DNA from: Planctomycetota bacterium
GTDB taxonomy: Bacteria > Planctomycetota > B129-G9
Assembly: GCA_043816375.1 (NCBI GenBank)
Contig: JBDRIB010000264.1
Coordinates: forward strand, 1 to 56,929
Direction of reading: 5' to 3'
Length of the DNA: 56,929 nucleotides
Shown here: in pieces, positions 5,631-53,392 of the stretch
Position numbering within the stretch: the first letter of the stretch is position 1
How the letters are laid out: each line of letters begins with the position of its first letter
Notes under the pieces: model-generated
The model's input: the letters and a program-made list of their open reading frames with translations, nothing else
Databases searched by the model: none
What the model was told of the DNA's origin: nothing
Program-made: the position numbers and the translations under genes

Positions 5631-5805
5631 TACGGTGACATTTATCCGCCAATGTGTGTGGCGGAGTCACCAATCTACGCCCCGACTTTCGCATTATTAT
5701 ATATGAATGTCGATTCCGCCCGTTCCCCGTACGGGTCAGGGTCCGAATGGGTAATTGGTGACAGTCACCGATATTGGCGCAAAATCAGTCAACTTGAGTA
5801 TTTTA
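5631..5805. repeat. intergenic repeat locus 1 (split-core module plus expanded doublet plus intact GGTGACAGTCACC core)
   Basis: Split core at 5634..5671 (GGTGACATTTATCCGCC-loop-GGCGGAGTCACC), then AATCTACG, then CCCCGACTTTCGC-AT-rich centre. Intact core at 5757..5769 followed by GATATT. The tail AAAATCAGTCAACTTGAG is the reverse complement of a segment at about 42912..42930. The locus fills the whole mntP/acr3 spacer. Confidence 0.9.
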
Positions 5806-6912
5806 CAATTTTTCCGGCTGACTGTCGTCTCGGGGAAACCAGTTTCTTGTGCGCCTGCAGAAAGAGACGAGCATAAGCATAACGGGAACTTCTATCAGGA
5901 CGCCCACCACCGTCGCCAGCGCAGCGCCGGAACCGAGACCGAACAGAGTCGCCGCCGTCGCAATCGCGACCTCAAAATGATTGGACGCACCTATCATCGC
6001 AGACGGCGCTGCGTCCTGATACCGCAGTTTCAGCAACCGGGCCAGACCGTATGCCAGCGCGAATATAAGACACGTCTGGATAAAAAGAGGTATCGCTATC
6101 AGAACGATGTCCTGCGGCGCGCGCAGCATCACATCGCCCTTGAACGAAAACAACAGCACCAGCGTGACAAGCAGCGCGCTGACGGAGACGGGCGTCAGGC
6201 GATGGAGAAATTTGTCGCGGAACCATTCGAACCCCTTCTTCCTTATTACCCACCTGCGCGAGAAGTATCCCGCTACGAGCGGCAGCGCAACGTATATGCC
6301 GACCGACAGGAGTATCGTCTCCCACGGAATCGGCATACTGTTCACCCCCAGCAGCCACCCGCCGAGCGGCGCGTACAAAAAGAGCATAGTCAGCGAGTTG
6401 ATGGCCACCATAACAAGCGTGTGCCCGGCGTTGCCGCGCGCCAGATAGCCCCATACGAGCACCATCGCAGTGCATGGCGCGATACCCAGCAGTATGCAGC
6501 CGGATATGTATGAGCGAAAAACCTCGACCGTCCGGCCGTCTTTCACAACTTCCGTCCCGGGAATCCAGCCCTTGAAAAGCACCGCCAGAAAGAACGTCGA
6601 GATGGCGAGCATTGTGAACGGCTTGATGCACCAGTTGACGAACAGAGTAAGCAGAACCGGTTTGGGCGTCCTGCCGGCGCGCACCACTTCGCCGAAGTCT
6701 ATCTTTACCATTATGGGATACATCATAAAGAAGAGACATACGGCAATCGGGATGGAAACCTGCCTGACCTGGATTGCGTCCAGCGTCCGGGCGAGGTCGG
6801 GCGCTGCGCGTCCGAGGCCGATTCCGGCGAGTATGCACAATATCACCCAGAGATAAAGGTATCGCTCGAAGAAACCGAGCGGCCGTTCGGTTGTGTTGAT
6901 TTCGGCGGACAT
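5803..6912 (-). CDS. acr3: arsenite efflux transporter, ACR3 family
   Basis: [19 protein letters not shown]...[21 protein letters not shown]...[10 protein letters not shown] is typical Acr3. I prefer the ATG at 6912 (MSAEINTTE), preceded by GAGGAG, over the TTG at 6927 used by the track. Confidence 0.9.
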
Positions 6913-6940
6913 ATTCTCCTCTGGCAAAACGAAAGGTAGA

Positions 6941-7030
6941 ACGAAAGGTGACTGTCACCAATTACGGCCCCGACATTCATATAAAAATAACGCGAAAGTC
7001 GGGGCGTAGATTGGTGACTGTCACCTTTCC
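6941..7030. repeat. intergenic repeat locus 2 (doublet: core-AATTACGG-hairpin centre-CGTAGATT-core)
   Basis: Cores at 6947..6959 and 7013..7025. The centre is CCCCGAC-AT-rich-GTCGGGG. It is the reverse complement of locus 1 apart from a roughly 38-nt insertion and the split core there. Confidence 0.9.
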
Positions 7031-7109
7031 AGGTGTCTCTTTATCCAATCAAAGAGCAATAATTGGGAACAGTGCGAAAAACCGGTACTTGCCCCTGAAA
7101 AATCCGGCT

Positions 7110-7802
7110 TTATATTTGAACGTCAAAGATATAATAAAGACAGTAATAAATTCCCACGAGAATGAAGATGACGCCGGTGATGCGGCGAGCCCATTTCTCG
7201 AAAGGCACAATCTTGTTGTAGACCCCGGCGACGCTCTTTGCGCCGAGCGCTATCAGCACGGCGAAAACCAGCACCGGCAGTCCCGTGGCCACACCATATA
7301 TGGAAGGAAGGACGACGCCCGACTCGTAGTGCAACGCGAGAGGGAGCAGGCTCCCGAAGAAAAGCGCCGCCGACACCGGGCAGAAAGATAGCGCGAAAAT
7401 CACGCCCAAAGGCAGCGCTCCCCATATACCGAGCGCATCGACGCGTTTCTGCATCCGCCCGTTAATGCCCGGTCCGGAGATGTTAATCCGGATGAGTTCC
7501 AGCAGAACCATGCCGACCAGGATAAGTATCGGCCCCAGCGCCTTGTTCATATATTTTTGCAGTGCGAACGAGAAATGTGGGGCCGAAAGCAGGCTCGTGA
7601 CGAGAAGCACCCCGATTACAAGATATGTCAGCATCCGCCCCGCGGTATAGAGCAGACCTGCCAGAAAAACCCTGGCGGGGCTGCCAATGCGGCGGCTCAC
7701 AAACGAGACAGCCGCTATGTTTGTGGCCAGCGGGCAGGGGCTGATTGCGGTCAGTATCCCCAGCCAGAAGGCCGACGCTGCGCCAATTAATATCTCGCTC
7801 AT
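7110..7802 (-). CDS. CcdA/DsbD-family membrane protein (ArsG-like permease)
   Basis: 230 aa, six or more TM segments, with the N-terminal ISPCPL motif typical of the cytochrome c biogenesis CcdA/DsbD transmembrane family. It sits directly after an ArsF-like gene, overlapping it by 4 nt. Confidence 0.7.
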   Translation of the reverse strand: MSEILIGAASAFWLGILTAISPCPLATNIAAVSFVSRRIGSPARVFLAGLLYTAGRMLTYLVIGVLLVTSLLSAPHFSFALQKYMNKALGPILILVGMVLLELIRINISGPGINGRMQKRVDALGIWGALPLGVIFALSFCPVSAALFFGSLLPLALHYESGVVLPSIYGVATGLPVLVFAVLIALGAKSVAGVYNKIVPFEKWARRITGVIFILVGIYYCLYYIFDVQI

Positions 7803-51487: not shown

Positions 51488-51515
51488 ATTATAAACGGGA
51501 ATCATTAATGGTCAA
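51488..51515 (-). promoter_or_regulatory. sigma70-type promoter for gap
   Basis: The minus strand reads TTGACC (51515..51510), 16 nt spacer, then TATAAT (51493..51488), about 100 nt upstream of the gap ATG. Confidence 0.4.
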
Positions 51516-51614
51516 GACCTGTGAAAAAATGCAGGGCAAGGTATTTCCCTCGACCACGAATGGGGCCTTCCCTGCTGCATTGTCGTTGCGGTTGCGGGAA
51601 AATTTTTCCGGCGG

Positions 51615-52649
51615 TCAGAAGAGTGTCGGCTGCCTGTCATCCGCAGGGCCGCCGCCTTCCACGCCGAGGTGCGCGTATGCGTCCGGCCCGGCCATCCGGC
51701 CCTGGCGGGTGCGCTGGAGAAAACCTATCTTCAGCAGGTGCGGCTCGACCATATCCACCAGCGTATCGACTTCCTCGCTGAGTGTCGCGGCGAGCGCTTC
51801 TATGCCGACCGGTCCGCCAGCGTAGTAGTCGATTATCGTGCGCAGGAACTTCCTGTCCAGTTTGTCCAGCCCGCGCTCGTCGATGCCTTCCATCTGGAGC
51901 GCGGCGGCCGCGACTTCCCCCGACACGACGCCGTCGGCCTTGACCTGCGCGAAGTCGCGCACGCGCCGGAGCAGCCGGTTGGCCACGCGGGGCGTTCCAC
52001 GTGATGATTTGGCCACCATATCGATTGCTTCGTCGTCGATTCCGACATCCAGCAGCCCGGCCGACCGCGCGAGTATCCTGCGAATCTCGTCGAACGAATA
52101 AAATTCGACGTGCAGGTGCATTCCGAAGCGCTCGCGCAATGGCGCGGAAAGCAGCCCCGCGCGCGTCGTCGCGCCAATCAGCGTGAACGGCCTCAGCGGC
52201 ATCTTTATCGTTTTTGCAAATGCGCCCCTGTCCACGATGAAATCCACCTGGAAATCCTCCATCGCAGGGTAGATGAGTTCCTCGACGGTGGGGCTCAGGC
52301 GATGTATCTCGTCGATGAAGAGTATGTCGGTGGGCTGCAGGTTCGTAAGAATTCCCATCAAATCCCCCGCGCGCACGAGCGCCGGCCCGGAGGTCGCGCA
52401 TATTTTCGAGCCCATTTCGTTCGCTACGATGTGCGCCAGTGATGTCTTGCCCAGTCCCGGCGGGCCGTGAAAGAGCATATGTTCGGCCTGCTCTTTGCGC
52501 GATTTGGCGGCCCTGACGGCGATGGCTATCTTTTCGATGAGTTCGGAGTGCCCGATAAACTCCTTGAAGTCGCCCGGACGGAGGCTGTAATTGAGTTTCT
52601 CTTCGCCCTCGTCCAGAGGCGTTCCGCTCACGACACGCTGTACACTCAT
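51615..52649 (-). CDS. ruvB: Holliday junction branch migration DNA helicase RuvB
   Basis: LFHGPPGLGKTSLA, ILFIDEIHRL, IGATTRAGLLSAPLRERFG. Confidence 0.96.
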   Translation of the reverse strand: MSVQRVVSGTPLDEGEEKLNYSLRPGDFKEFIGHSELIEKIAIAVRAAKSRKEQAEHMLFHGPPGLGKTSLAHIVANEMGSKICATSGPALVRAGDLMGILTNLQPTDILFIDEIHRLSPTVEELIYPAMEDFQVDFIVDRGAFAKTIKMPLRPFTLIGATTRAGLLSAPLRERFGMHLHVEFYSFDEIRRILARSAGLLDVGIDDEAIDMVAKSSRGTPRVANRLLRRVRDFAQVKADGVVSGEVAAAALQMEGIDERGLDKLDRKFLRTIIDYYAGGPVGIEALAATLSEEVDTLVDMVEPHLLKIGFLQRTRQGRMAGPDAYAHLGVEGGGPADDRQPTLF

Positions 52650-53287
52650 AATTTCTGGCTCACTGCAGACTTCACCTGGTTGAATATGGCGTTAAGCAGT
52701 TTCTCCACGTCGTCTATCGACGGGTCGGACGTCATCGCGCGTTCAATCATCCGGCCCGCTTCGACAGGCTTATACTGCAACTGCATAAGCACGTCCATCG
52801 CCTCGTCCTTGAAATTCATTTCCCTGGCGGGCTCTTCTTCCATCTCAAGATGCCGCTTGAGCGCGAACTTCGTGCACTTCCCCTTCAATTCCGCGATTAT
52901 CTTTTGCGAGGCGCGCTCTCCGATTCCCGGCAGCGACCTGAGCGTCGTGGAGTCGCCGGTCTCGATGGCCGCGGCTATCCTCTCCACCGGTATGACGAAC
53001 GCCTTGAGCGCCTTGCGCGTGCTTATTCCCTGCACACTGGTGAAAAGCAGGAAGAATTCGCGGTCGACCTCGTCAACAAAGCCGACCAGCCTCGGCACCA
53101 GGTTTCCGCCGGCGGTGCTTCCTTCGAGGTAGTGGTAGGTATGCAGGGCGACGTCCTGGTCGCGCAATGACAGGAGTTGTTTGTTGATGATACTCGGAAC
53201 GAGCACCTGGTATGCGATGCCGTGGGAGAGAATCTCGACGGTGTCGGCCTTCACGCTGATGAGTCTTCCGGATATCCGCGATATCAT
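52646..53287 (-). CDS. ruvA: Holliday junction branch migration complex subunit RuvA
   Basis: MISRISGRL......GIAYQV.V...; HhH region LRSLPGIGERASQKIIAEL. The stop overlaps the ruvB start. Confidence 0.9.
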   Translation of the reverse strand: MISRISGRLISVKADTVEILSHGIAYQVLVPSIINKQLLSLRDQDVALHTYHYLEGSTAGGNLVPRLVGFVDEVDREFFLLFTSVQGISTRKALKAFVIPVERIAAAIETGDSTTLRSLPGIGERASQKIIAELKGKCTKFALKRHLEMEEEPAREMNFKDEAMDVLMQLQYKPVEAGRMIERAMTSDPSIDDVEKLLNAIFNQVKSAVSQKL

Positions 53288-53347
53288 TGTTATTCTCGGT
53301 CAAAAACGCTCATCTTATCGTTCTTTTCATTGCCAAGGAAACACCTT

Positions 53348-53392
53348 GCGAAAGGATGACACTTGTCCGCCTCAGGCGGAGTCACCTTTCGT
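53348..53392 (-). repeat. intergenic repeat locus 12 (split-core module)
   Basis: The reverse complement reads CGAAAGGTGACTCCGCC-TGAG-GCGGACAAGTGTCATCCTTTCGC. This is the same split-core variant as at 42868..42904 and 5634..5671. Confidence 0.8.

What the first reader, a model, noticed from the sequence alone, without database searches (positions are those of the whole stretch)
5631..53392. Dense intergenic repeat family built on the perfect palindrome GGTGAC(A/T)GTCACC: about 35 cores in 12 loci
Every sizeable spacer between operons in this window contains the 13-nt perfect palindrome GGTGACWGTCACC or a one-mismatch variant. The loci are 5.6, 6.9, 14.3, 16.7, 20.2, 25.7, 27.6, 38.9-39.3, 42.6-43.1, 46.4, 50.2 and 53.3 kb. 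I count about 35 cores covering roughly 2.5 kb. Only one core-like 12-mer lies inside a gene (tilS, 18913), and it has no flanking arms. The core always carries one of two related arms, AATTACGG(A) or its near inverse (T)CGTAGATT. Three other modules recur with it: a second 13-nt palindrome of the same design, GGGGACWGTCCCC; CGTAGAATAGAACAGGTCCTGGGATGC; and CCTTTTGCA. Hybrid cores exist (GGGGACCGTCACC at 27619, GGTGACAGTCCG at 39156), which suggests the two palindromes exchange halves. Modules are shuffled between loci: the same segments occur in different order and orientation at 5.6 kb and 42.9 kb. A GTAG next to a palindrome, and paired inverted copies, are the hallmarks of REP/REPIN elements mobilised by RAYT (Y1, IS200/IS605-like) transposases. 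No transposase lies in this window. The sequence and modular grammar do not match any repeat family I can name. Reading through the core gives the spurious peptides MTVT... and VTVTN... seen at the ends of many track ORFs.
Basis: partly seen in the sequence, partly recalled or inferred. Interest (0 to 1): 0.8.

Follow-up and report, generated by a model that had tools for sequence, protein, structure and literature searches.

The report
Palindromic REP-like repeats in a planctomycete
The spacers between genes in this uncultured planctomycete are crowded with a previously uncatalogued family of small hairpin-forming repeats of the known REP/REPIN/BIME kind, which come and go between close relatives. 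In a sister lineage they also travel inside a classical miniature transposon.

Summary
GGTGACWGTCACC occurs 13 times exactly (0 expected) and 34 times with up to 2 mismatches (0.8 expected), almost all outside genes.

The basic unit is a short palindrome with a GTAG-type tail. There are two systematically different forms, GTAGATT-RGTGACTGTCACC and GTAATT-RGTGACAGTCACC. They pair tail-to-tail around a variable inner hairpin to give about 69-nt doublets that fold as long hairpins. Doublets nest into 160-210-nt composites together with a second family (GGGGACWGTCCCC; GTAGAATAGAACAGGTCC).

The family is not confined to the window. It is in a Guaymas Planctomycetota MAG whose coding DNA is only 71-78% identical, and in contigs of several other metagenomes. 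More distant relatives keep the TTACGG...CGTAGA junction but have different outer palindromes. Orthologous spacers differ in repeat content, including a single core versus a doublet at the same site.

In the Guaymas lineage the doublet rides inside a 169-nt element with terminal inverted repeats and 6-7-nt target duplications. The window has only remnants of that element.

Verdict: a new member of the known GTAG-REP/REPIN/BIME kind. The RAYT partner could not be tested.

The parts
5630..5799 (-). Composite. Read on the minus strand it holds: a terminal-repeat remnant ACTCAAGTTGACTGAT (5799-5784); a core with AATTAC (5769-5751); a nested hairpin CCATTCGGACCCTGAC...GGGAACGGG; an inner hairpin; CGTAGATT (5679-5672); and a core split by a 26-nt hairpin (5671-5634) followed by GTAA.
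   Evidence: The same nested hairpin occurs in L035 1524-1570.
6947..7025 (+). 79-nt doublet: core-AATTACGG, then the long AT-rich inner hairpin CCCCGAC...GTCGGGG, then CGTAGATT-core.
   Evidence: dG -27.4, z -9.5. The same variant occurs in L110, L111 and L156.
14343..14355 (+). Lone core without arms. It lies inside a 47-nt segment flanked by a 16-nt direct repeat (14324-14339 and 14387-14402).
16730..16937 (+). 208-nt composite. In order: core+AATTAC; GGACCTGTTCTATTTAC; GCAAAAG; a doublet with inner hairpin CCCCGATTTATCGGGG; CTTTTGCA; CGTAGAATAGAACAGGTTCTGGAATGC; GGGGACAGTCCCC; CGTAGATT+core.
   Evidence: 83% identical to 25692-25895 in reverse orientation
20175..20242 (-). 68-nt doublet with degenerate tails (GCAG and ACAG in place of GTAG and ACGG). 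It is flanked by GTTAATATC.
25693..25895 (-). 203-nt composite with the same architecture as 16730-16937, bounded exactly by cores.
   Evidence: (D11, D19)
27619..27687 (+). Degenerate doublet with hybrid core GGGGACCGTCACC and decayed tails (AATCACGG ... CGCAGCCT).
38877..38941 (+). 65-nt doublet. The ORF 37386-38888 runs into it because of a spurious upstream start.
39057..39303 (+). Array. It holds: a lone core (39057-39069); a second-family doublet GGACCGGTTCTATTTACGG-hairpin-CGTAGAATAGAACCGGTCC (39078-39152); a hybrid core (39156); GTAGATT+core (39183-39202); CTTTTGCA plus CGTAGAATAGAACC... (39202-39239); and GGGGACAGTCCAC-like cores (39243, 39291).
42605..42859 (+). Doublet with outer arms GCAAAAG and CTTTTGC (42614-42682), followed by two 99-nt tandem units that are 99% identical (42655-42753 and 42754-42852).
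   Evidence: (D13). The orthologous contig L155 has only a doublet here.
42860..42925 (+). CGTAGATT, then a core split by the hairpin TCCGCC...GGCGGACAAGT (42868-42905), then AATTA, then a terminal-repeat remnant ATTCAAGTTGACTGAC (42910-42925).
42982..43050 (-). 69-nt doublet. At exactly this site the 91-96% identical contig L155 has a single core followed by the same flank, GATATTAAC.
   Evidence: (dG -25.2, z -7.5)
46443..46510 (.). Pair of extended palindromes AATT-core-AATT, with centre bases A then T, in a convergent spacer upstream of a terminator-like hairpin (46542-46563).
50216..50377 (-). 162-nt composite: core, GGGGACTGTCCCC, second-family module, CTTTTGC, doublet, GCAAAAG. It lies in the gap-rpe spacer.
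   Evidence: The same spacer is 79 nt and repeat-free in L166 and holds other modules in L035.
53354..53386 (-). Lone core split by a short hairpin (GGATGAC-ACTTGTCCGCCTCAGGCGGA-GTCACC), with GAAA and TTTC flanks.

Best explanation
These are non-coding, non-autonomous palindromic repeats of the REP/REPIN/BIME kind, belonging to an uncultured Planctomycetota lineage.

Structure. The unit is a 19-20-nt element: a GTAG-type tail plus the palindrome GGTGAC-W-GTCACC. It comes in two fixed forms, GTAGATT+core with centre T and GTAATT+core with centre A. The two forms sit tail-to-tail around a variable but always self-complementary spacer. This gives a roughly 69-nt doublet that can extrude as a long hairpin on single-stranded DNA. 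A second family has the heads GGACCNGTTCTAT and GGGGACWGTCCCC and shares the same inner junction, TTACGG-hairpin-CGTAGA. The two families nest inside each other and duplicate locally, building the 160-450-nt arrays seen in the spacers.

Shown. The elements are gained and lost on the time scale of species divergence. They exist as populations of near-identical copies. The hairpin is maintained by compensatory changes.

Inferred. Copies are made by a single-strand-specific HUH/Y1 (RAYT-type) enzyme that recognises the conserved GTAG tail at the foot of the hairpin and inserts without target duplication. Insertion appears to be preferentially at GGTGAC| and TTAC| sites, that is, into existing copies.

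Shown for the sister lineage only. There the doublet is also spread passively as cargo of a 169-nt TIR/TSD miniature transposon.

Any host-level role, such as mRNA 3' hairpins or nucleoid protein sites, would be secondary.
For: Non-random and intergenic. The core is far above chance. Exact cores are about 240 times denser outside gene interiors than inside them.

Fixed grammar. Searches show the two forms and their pairing. Of 80 core pairs, 48 have a 56-nt period.

Hairpins. Predicted single-strand DNA folds give dG -25 to -30 kcal/mol and z -7.5 to -10 on either strand. On 45 distinct doublets, 94% of cells are paired. There are 46 cells with changes on both sides against 12.5 +/- 2.8 in shuffles (0 of 500 reach the observed value). 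The pair at columns 13-57 switches C:G to T:A seven times. More than 8 unrelated inner hairpins sit between the same tails.

Population structure. Two master sequences (39 and 33 copies) are surrounded by a cloud of one-base variants.

Shared across diverged genomes. Coding DNA is only 71-78% identical to the Guaymas MAG, yet the 21-mers are identical. Contigs of several further metagenomes carry the family.

Conserved tails, swapped heads. Relatives at 81% GroEL identity keep the TTACGG...CGTAGA junction but have GGGGACWGTCCCC, GGGGTCWGACCCC or AGACCGGGTCTAT as heads.

Turnover. L155 against the window shows a single core versus a doublet at one site, plus about 300 nt of extra array. The gap-rpe spacer is empty in L166, filled in one way in the window, and filled in another way in L035. 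Element versions of 112, 169 and 214 nt differ by +56 and +45/46 nt without target duplication. There is no TSD at doublet ends in 92 of 93 copies.

Literature. GTAG-tagged REPs are known as tail-tail heterodimers with structured spacers, in the PVC group too, and usually have a RAYT (PMC3733652). GTAG is the part contacted by the E. coli enzyme (PMC6006769).
Against: No RAYT or other Y1 gene was found in the window or in about 0.79 Mb of related contigs, using single-sequence, profile, motif and Pfam checks.

A single unit does not meet the strict operational REP definition. Its stem is 6 bp with a 1-nt centre, the GTAG lies 3 nt from the stem, and the partner tail is GTAA rather than GTAG.

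Both cores of a doublet carry the same centre base in 59 of 80 pairs. That fits a direct duplication of the core better than a simple inverted pair.

The clean master-copy population in the MAG is largely explained by the TIR/TSD carrier, so it is not independent evidence that the doublet replicates on its own.

The single-core versus doublet differences could be deletions between the two 13-nt direct repeats rather than insertions.
Confidence: 0.62

Rival explanations
1. Everything is debris of ordinary TIR/TSD miniature transposons moved by a DDE transposase. On this view the palindromic cores and GTAG-like arms are just internal sequence of such elements, and the window copies are decayed fragments.
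For: In the Guaymas lineage the doublet sits at a fixed place inside a 169-nt element with 14-16-nt terminal inverted repeats. Of 58 copies, 25 have exact 6-7-nt AT-rich target duplications of differing sequence. The window has terminal-repeat remnants at 5784-5799 and 42910-42925. Flanks such as GTTAATATC-[doublet]-GAAAGATG resemble the carrier's GTTAACCTC-[doublet]-GTAAGGTG.
Against: The terminal repeat is essentially absent from the window lineage: 0-3 hits in 122 kb that hold about 90 cores. In the Guaymas contigs there are 181 hits. Window composites end exactly at cores with no target duplication. Relatives without this carrier still have doublets of the same design but with other heads. 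The carrier itself exists with a single core, a doublet, or a doublet plus nested hairpin, so the doublet behaves as a separable insert. No long element with these terminal repeats and a transposase was seen.
Confidence: 0.17
2. The palindromes are host-selected functional sites, copied by selection rather than transposition. Candidates are operators of a dimeric DNA-binding protein or nucleoid protein, or mRNA-end hairpins acting as terminators or stabilisers.
For: A 6-1-6 palindrome is a typical dimer binding site. Positions are downstream of genes or between co-directional genes. There is a weak deficit in divergent spacers, 24% against 39% occupied. Some module junctions look promoter-like.
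Against: Whole 69-210-nt units recur with 83-100% identity, including parts with no symmetry. Orthologous spacers differ in content, order and orientation, or are empty, so no site is conserved in place. Both orientations occur relative to transcription, even within one spacer. No T-run follows the doublets. The divergent-spacer deficit is not significant (p = 0.10).
Confidence: 0.08
3. The doublets are small structured RNA genes or cis-regulatory RNAs.
For: They have strong predicted hairpins with compensatory changes.
Against: No Rfam family matches, apart from chance hits below threshold. The hairpin is equally good on both strands. There is no orientation bias towards flanking genes. Copy number and turnover are those of repeats.
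Confidence: 0.03

Closest known systems
GTAG-tagged REP families (Di Nocera, De Gregorio & Rocco 2013, PMC3733652), including those of Rhodopirellula baltica (GTAG-20/21) and Opitutus terrae
   Same: Short extragenic palindromes with a GTAG tail at one end. They have a high copy number. They form tail-tail and head-head dimers with 20-100-nt spacers that are often themselves hairpins. Heterodimers of two fixed unit types occur, as do clusters, and several families coexist in one genome.
   Different: The sequence is unrelated to any family named there: neither GGTGAC nor GTCACC appears in the paper's supplements. The GTAG lies 3 nt from a 6-bp stem with a 1-nt centre. The partner tail is GTAA. 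Density is unusually high, about one core per 1.5 kb of the window.
REPIN-RAYT systems (Bertels & Rainey 2011, PMC3116915; PMC3337134)
   Same: Two REPs in inverted orientation with a short spacer form a hairpin doublet that is the repeated unit. Populations show master sequences. There are no target duplications. The family persists across diverged relatives.
   Different: The RAYT has not been found, though this could not be tested genome-wide. The two cores of a doublet are direct copies with respect to their centre base. In one lineage the doublet is carried by a TIR/TSD element, which is not part of the REPIN model.
E. coli BIMEs (mosaics of Y and Z palindromic units plus extra motifs); recalled from my own knowledge
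   Same: Two unit types alternate in orientation with a small set of linker motifs, giving modular arrays in spacers.
   Different: The sequences are unrelated. Here the units are nested (a doublet inside a doublet) rather than only strung in series.
Bacterial MITEs with terminal inverted repeats and target duplications (e.g. Correia/NEMIS, RUP, Nezha); recalled from my own knowledge
   Same: The 169-nt Guaymas element has 14-16-nt terminal inverted repeats, 6-7-nt AT-rich target duplications and dozens of near-identical copies.
   Different: It carries a REP doublet as cargo, and it often inserts into the AT-rich arms of other REPs. It is absent as an intact element from the window.
IS200/IS605 family transposition (IS608 inserts 3' of TTAC, with no target duplication); recalled from my own knowledge, with the enzyme family described in PMC6006769
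   Same: The nested inserts here sit directly after TTAC (AATTAC|) or after GGTGAC|. They are hairpins and leave no target duplication.
   Different: No transposase gene is present, and the cleavage sites are inferred from only a few filled/empty comparisons.

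Membership tests
GTAG-tagged REP (PMC3733652; operational rules in PMC6006769) | Short (20-40 nt) stem-loop repeats, many copies, extragenic | tested here: met
GTAG-tagged REP (PMC3733652; operational rules in PMC6006769) | GTAG or GTGG tetranucleotide 0-2 nt 5' of the hairpin | tested here: inconclusive
   One form has GTAG, but 3 nt from the 6-bp stem (GTAG-ATT-GGTGAC). The other form has GTAA, 2 nt away. CGTAGA[AT]T occurs 20 times outside gene interiors against once inside.
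GTAG-tagged REP (PMC3733652; operational rules in PMC6006769) | Basal stem of 7-20 fully paired nt with a loop of 2-5 nt, or a long bulged hairpin | tested here: not met
   A single unit is a 6-1-6 palindrome, effectively 5 bp with a 3-nt loop. Only the doublet, or the variants with a hairpin in place of the centre base, give long stems.
GTAG-tagged REP (PMC3733652; operational rules in PMC6006769) | Dimers (HH/TT) with 20-100-nt spacers, and clusters | tested here: met
   Tail-tail dimers: 80 pairs, with a 56-nt period in 48. Clusters are mapped.
GTAG-tagged REP (PMC3733652; operational rules in PMC6006769) | A RAYT gene flanked by the repeats (REPtron) | not testable with these tools
   None in the window or in about 0.79 Mb of related contigs.
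REPIN (PMC3116915) | Two REPs in inverted orientation, short conserved spacer, hairpin-forming | tested here: met
   Caveat: the centre bases of the two cores are direct, not inverted, in 59 of 80 pairs.
REPIN (PMC3116915) | The doublet, rather than the single REP, is the replicating unit, shown by a master sequence with a mutational cloud | tested here: inconclusive
   Master copies of 39 and 33 plus one-base variants are present. In that lineage, however, they are carried by a TIR/TSD element.
REPIN (PMC3116915) | No target-site duplication | tested here: met
   92 of 93 doublets have no direct repeat at their ends.
MITE (TIR + TSD) | Terminal inverted repeats | tested here: not met
   For the window elements there are only two or three lone remnants. 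This feature is met for the 169-nt element of the Guaymas lineage.
MITE (TIR + TSD) | Target-site duplication of variable sequence | tested here: not met
   None at window doublets or composites. Met in the Guaymas lineage, where 25 of 58 copies have exact 6-7-nt duplications.
MITE (TIR + TSD) | Autonomous IS with the same ends | not testable with these tools
   No TIR pair 600-4000 nt apart with a target duplication in the loci held.
CRISPR array | Identical direct repeats with unique spacers of constant length, plus cas genes | tested here: not met
   Units are inverted pairs, spacers recur between loci, arrays hold 1-7 units, and there are no cas genes in the window.
Any Rfam RNA family | Match at the gathering score | tested here: not met
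   Only tRNA-Gly matches. Sub-threshold hits are hairpin artefacts.

The most novel reading that the evidence does not exclude
The roughly 56-nt unit (W-GTCACC-AATTACGG-hairpin-CGTAGATT-GGTGAC) may be a self-targeting mobile hairpin. On this reading it inserts into the centre of existing copies of its own palindrome and after TTAC, duplicating only the centre base, so that arrays grow from within in a nested fashion. The REP family would then have two independent routes of spread: its own single-strand enzyme, and capture by a DDE-type miniature transposon that itself prefers the AT-rich REP arms as targets. That would be a three-way interplay of two repeat systems and the host, not described for REPs as far as I know.
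Probability: 0.18. Interest if true: 0.65.

Novelty: new member of a known kind. Interest (0 to 1): 0.4.

Why it matters
The finding extends REP/REPIN-type elements to a deep, uncultured Planctomycetota clade at very high density. It offers a natural series for asking what the mobilising enzyme reads: the GTAG/TTAC junction is conserved while the heads are swapped across related lineages.

It also gives a concrete case of a REP doublet carried by a TIR/TSD miniature transposon.

There is a practical side. These repeats end 88 of 120 short-read metagenome contigs. They create false VTVT... gene starts. They can also serve as a lineage marker that exposes mis-binned contigs.

Tried and rejected
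Finding the window's genome. Exact look-up of two window proteins returned nothing on record.

Finding a RAYT. I ran phmmer with E. coli RayT, two RayT profiles (120 enterobacterial sequences; 109 diverse representatives), an HUH/Y motif regex, and Pfam on the 7 motif candidates. All were negative in the window plus about 0.79 Mb of loci. The one weak hit, L002 97-402 (E = 0.006), has no Pfam support.

Protein searches that gave little. The protein search with RayT listed only enterobacterial proteins. A search with peptides encoded by the doublet, meant to find read-through ORFs or RAYTs overlapping REPs, found nothing.

Catalogue checks. Rfam at gathering and E-value thresholds gave nothing. 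The same was true of PLSDB plasmids, IMG/VR, full-text literature searches for cores, arms and the terminal repeat, and the supplements of the REP catalogue paper.

Ideas rejected. A CRISPR-like array does not fit, because the units are inverted pairs and the spacers recur. Intrinsic terminators do not fit, because no T-run follows the doublets. There is no strand bias towards transcription: both orientations occur, even within one spacer. Avoidance of divergent promoter spacers is only a trend (odds ratio 2.1, p = 0.10).

L169, whose GroEL is 96% identical, aligned only within groES-groEL and said nothing about the spacer.

Full report

Yes. GGTGACWGTCACC occurs 13 times exactly, against 0.00 expected from shuffles. 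With up to 2 mismatches it occurs 34 times against 0.79 expected. GGGGACWGTCCCC occurs 3 times exactly, with 4 more near-copies. Three further cores have their centre base replaced by a 20-26-nt hairpin.

My gene map uses codon-usage-scored ORFs, checked with NCBIfam and Pfam. It puts all exact cores outside gene interiors. The only in-gene hit, at 18912 in tilS, has 2 mismatches and no arms, which is the chance expectation. In the window plus related contigs there are 331 exact cores in 160 kb outside gene interiors and 4 in 489 kb inside them.

All twelve loci and all named modules are at the stated places.

Two generalisations are too strong. At least ten spacers of 130 nt or more have no core. 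Some cores have no arms (14343, 39057) or only AATT on both sides (46443, 46498).

The window holds housekeeping genes: tig, clpP/X, rplS, trmD, tilS, ribD, panB, hldE, groES/EL, rpe, gap, ruvABC and glycosyltransferases. It holds no transposase.

**2. Anatomy**

The centre base marks orientation. Read with T in the centre, one class of cores is followed by AATTAC(GG) and the other is preceded by (C)GTAGATT. The unit is therefore a tail plus a palindrome, in two fixed forms:
- GTAGATT-RGTGAC-T-GTCACC
- on the other strand, GTAATT-RGTGAC-A-GTCACC

The two forms sit tail-to-tail. I found 80 such pairs in the window and related loci. The start-to-start distance is 56 nt in 48 of them.

Between the tails lies a spacer that differs between copies but is always self-complementary. 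More than eight unrelated hairpins are seen between identical tails.

The doublets fold as long hairpins as single-stranded DNA on either strand, with dG -25 to -30 kcal/mol and z -7.5 to -10.

On 45 distinct 69-nt doublets, 94% of cells pair. There are 46 cells with changes on both sides, against 12.5 +/- 2.8 in shuffles (0 of 500 reach the observed value). Slid controls collapse. The pair linking the two cores (columns 13 and 57) switches C:G to T:A seven times. These copies are related to each other, so the shuffle control overstates significance. The many unrelated inner hairpins make the same point independently.

A second family uses other heads, GGACCNGTTCTAT / ATAGAACNGGTCC and GGGGACWGTCCCC, but the same junction, TTTACGG-hairpin-CGTAGAA. 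An example is 39078-39152. All eight TTACGG...CGTAGA units in the window are intergenic.

The 160-210-nt composites at 16.7, 25.7 and 50.2 kb are a first-family doublet nested inside a second-family doublet, joined by GCAAAAG and CTTTTGC. They end exactly at cores. Arrays also grow by tandem duplication: two 99-nt units at 42655-42852 are 99% identical.

**3. Where else is it?**

Nearly all were from the Guaymas Basin MAG 'Planctomycetota bacterium B129_G9'. That MAG's coding DNA is only 71-78% identical to the window.

A metagenome scan with CGTAGATTGGTGACTGTCACC also hit its limit, at 120 contigs from the sample prefixes Ga0164318, Ga0164310, Ga0233415 and Ga0180431-434.

The closest GroEL in the protein collection is 84% identical. 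Every hit that carries an organism name is an uncultured Planctomycetota.

There are no matches in plasmids, viral contigs, Rfam or the literature. The REP catalogue paper's supplements contain neither GGTGAC nor GTCACC.

Module content splits by lineage:
- The Guaymas population has the first-family core, one inner hairpin type and a terminal-repeat module. It has no second family.
- The window lineage (window, Ga0233415, Ga018043x) has both families and almost no terminal repeat.
- Two relatives at 81% GroEL identity (L166, L168) lack GGTGACWGTCACC. They do have doublets of the same design with the heads GGGGACWGTCCCC, GGGGTCWGACCCC or AGACCGGGTCTAT.

So the tails are conserved while the heads change.

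**4. Evidence of turnover**

Contig L155 is 91-96% identical to window 41503-43700. Its spacer holds a doublet, 54 unique bases and a single core followed by GATATTAAC. The window has, at that same flank, a full doublet (42982-43050) and about 300 nt of additional array.

The gap-rpe spacer differs in three relatives. It is 79 nt and repeat-free in L166. It holds a 162-nt composite in the window. It holds about 800 nt with different modules in L035.

A nested hairpin sits directly after AATTAC in L035 and at 5.7 kb in the window, while an otherwise similar doublet in L035 lacks it. There is no target duplication, with at most one ambiguous base.

**5. The unexpected layer**

In the Guaymas population the doublet is not free-standing. 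Aligning the flanks of 93 copies gives a roughly 169-nt element:

(TA)CTCAAGTTGACTGA[G/C]TTTTTGTTAACCTC - doublet - GTAAGGTGTTGTGAAACAGCAGATTATAATCAAGCACCCACCATCATCCAGAAAAAGTCAGTCAACTTGAG(TA)

It has perfect 14-16-nt terminal inverted repeats.

Of 58 terminal-repeat pairs, 31 are 168-169 nt long. Of the same 58, 25 have exact 6-7-nt direct repeats of differing, AT-rich sequence immediately outside the ends, such as AAAAGTA, TATTTTT, TAATATA, TCTTGTA, TAAAGTC and TAACAAG. This is the signature of a classical miniature transposon moved by a staggered-cut (DDE-type) transposase.

Several copies are inserted into the AT-rich arms of other REPs, with duplications TAATCTA or TAATTA. This explains the AATTAC|TCAAGTTGACTGA junctions. 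The '...CAAGTTGACTGA...' pieces at 5784-5799 and 42910-42925 in the window are lone remnants of this terminal repeat.

The carrier exists in three sizes:
- 112 nt, with a single core
- 169 nt, with a doublet
- 214 nt, with a doublet plus the nested hairpin

It therefore grows in steps of 56 and 45-46 nt without target duplication.

The master-copy population (39 and 33 copies plus one-base variants) is thus largely the carrier's doing. It is not independent proof that the doublet replicates on its own.

**6. Mechanism**

Shown:
- This is a repeat family with a fixed grammar.
- The hairpin is maintained.
- The elements lie between genes.
- They turn over between relatives.
- The doublet has no target duplication.
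- In one lineage it is spread as cargo of a TIR/TSD element.

Inferred: the doublets and nested hairpins are made by a single-strand HUH/Y1 enzyme of the RAYT type. Three things support this. First, the part conserved across lineages and head types is the GTAG/TTAC junction, and GTAG is the part the E. coli enzyme contacts (PMC6006769). Second, GTAG REPs usually have a RAYT, including in PVC bacteria (PMC3733652). Third, insertion after TTAC without duplication is what IS608-type enzymes do (my own knowledge).

I could not test this. No Y1 gene is in the window or in about 0.79 Mb of related contigs.

An alternative reading of the same facts is that the 56-nt unit inserts into the centre of an existing core and duplicates only the centre base. 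Both cores of a doublet share their centre base in 59 of 80 pairs. Deletion between the two 13-nt direct repeats would give the same filled/empty pairs, so the direction of change is unresolved.

**7. Rivals**

- 'All MITE debris' fails for the window lineage. The terminal repeat is nearly absent there, and composites end at cores without duplications.
- Host-selected binding sites or terminators do not explain 70-210-nt units recurring at 83-100% identity. They also do not explain non-conserved positions, both orientations in one spacer, or the lack of T-runs. The deficit in divergent spacers is only a trend (p = 0.10).
- RNA genes have no support.

**8. Comparison and verdict**

The closest known things are GTAG-tagged REPs, REPINs and BIMEs. 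The elements here work like these: tail-tail heterodimers with structured spacers and mosaic clusters. Strict membership is not proven. The single unit's stem is too short for the operational REP definition. One tail is GTAA. The RAYT is unseen.

I file this as a new member of a known kind, with two features worth a specialist's attention. One is the conserved junction with swapped heads across a clade. The other is capture of a REP doublet by a TIR/TSD element. Interest is moderate.

Noticed in passing
window 14324-14402: A 16-nt direct repeat ACAAGGAGGCACTGAT, which is the ribosome-binding site plus the first bases of the clpP start, flanks a 47-nt segment holding the lone core 14343-14355. 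It looks like an insertion at the clpP start that duplicated the RBS. The true clpP start is the ATG at 14400 ([10 protein letters not shown]...), not the GTG inside the core.
   Followed up: partly
window 42686-42713, 42785-42812, 39191-39220, 50314-50285(-): The junction CCTTTTGCA plus CGTAGAATAGAAC creates promoter-like hexamers (TTGCAA-N16-TAGAAT; GTGACT-N18-TAGAAT). These are consensus matches only. Repeats could carry outward promoters.
   Followed up: no
L046-L165 (metagenome contigs): 88 of 120 contigs have a core within 150 nt of a contig end. 48% of all cores lie in the 11% of sequence near ends. The repeats break short-read assemblies of this lineage.
   Followed up: yes
L026 (QNAH01000440, Zixiibacteriota MAG) and L041 (QMOK01000286, Chloroflexota MAG): Contigs carrying the same master doublet and carrier element are binned into MAGs of other phyla from the same Guaymas sample. 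This is probably mis-binning, and the repeat could serve as a lineage marker.
   Followed up: no
L035 1905-1985; L166 7650-7690: Runs of 7-nt tandem repeats (CCCTCAT / CCCTTAT / CACTTAT; CATCCTT) sit in spacers next to the palindromic repeats in two relatives.
   Followed up: no
window 23548-25645 (-): Two adjacent genes for WYL/WCX-domain regulators (one also has a PafC-type HTH) lie directly next to the 25.7-kb composite.
   Followed up: no
window 46427-46566: Sub-threshold Rfam hits to Leu, Thr and Trp leader families (best 42.6 bits against a gathering score of 50). They are explained by the palindrome pair plus a terminator-like hairpin GCCTGTGAAGGCGGGC-TTTTTT between the convergent glycosyltransferase and groEL genes. 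They are not a real leader.
   Followed up: partly
window 120-1460(-), 4066-5028(-), 7799-8401(-), 10649-12511(+), 30235-31980(-), 32015-33496(-), 33684-34952(-): Seven sizeable ORFs have no Pfam match at E <= 1e-5. For the two also scanned with NCBIfam (10649-12511 and 30235-31980) there was no match at E <= 1e-3 either. Three of them form a run at 30.2-35.0 kb.
   Followed up: no
window 20175-20242 vs 42982-43050: The same flank pair (GTTAATATC ... GATGC/GAAAGATGC) occurs in opposite orientation relative to the doublet at these two loci. This suggests the doublet interior can be flipped by recombination between its inverted cores.
   Followed up: no
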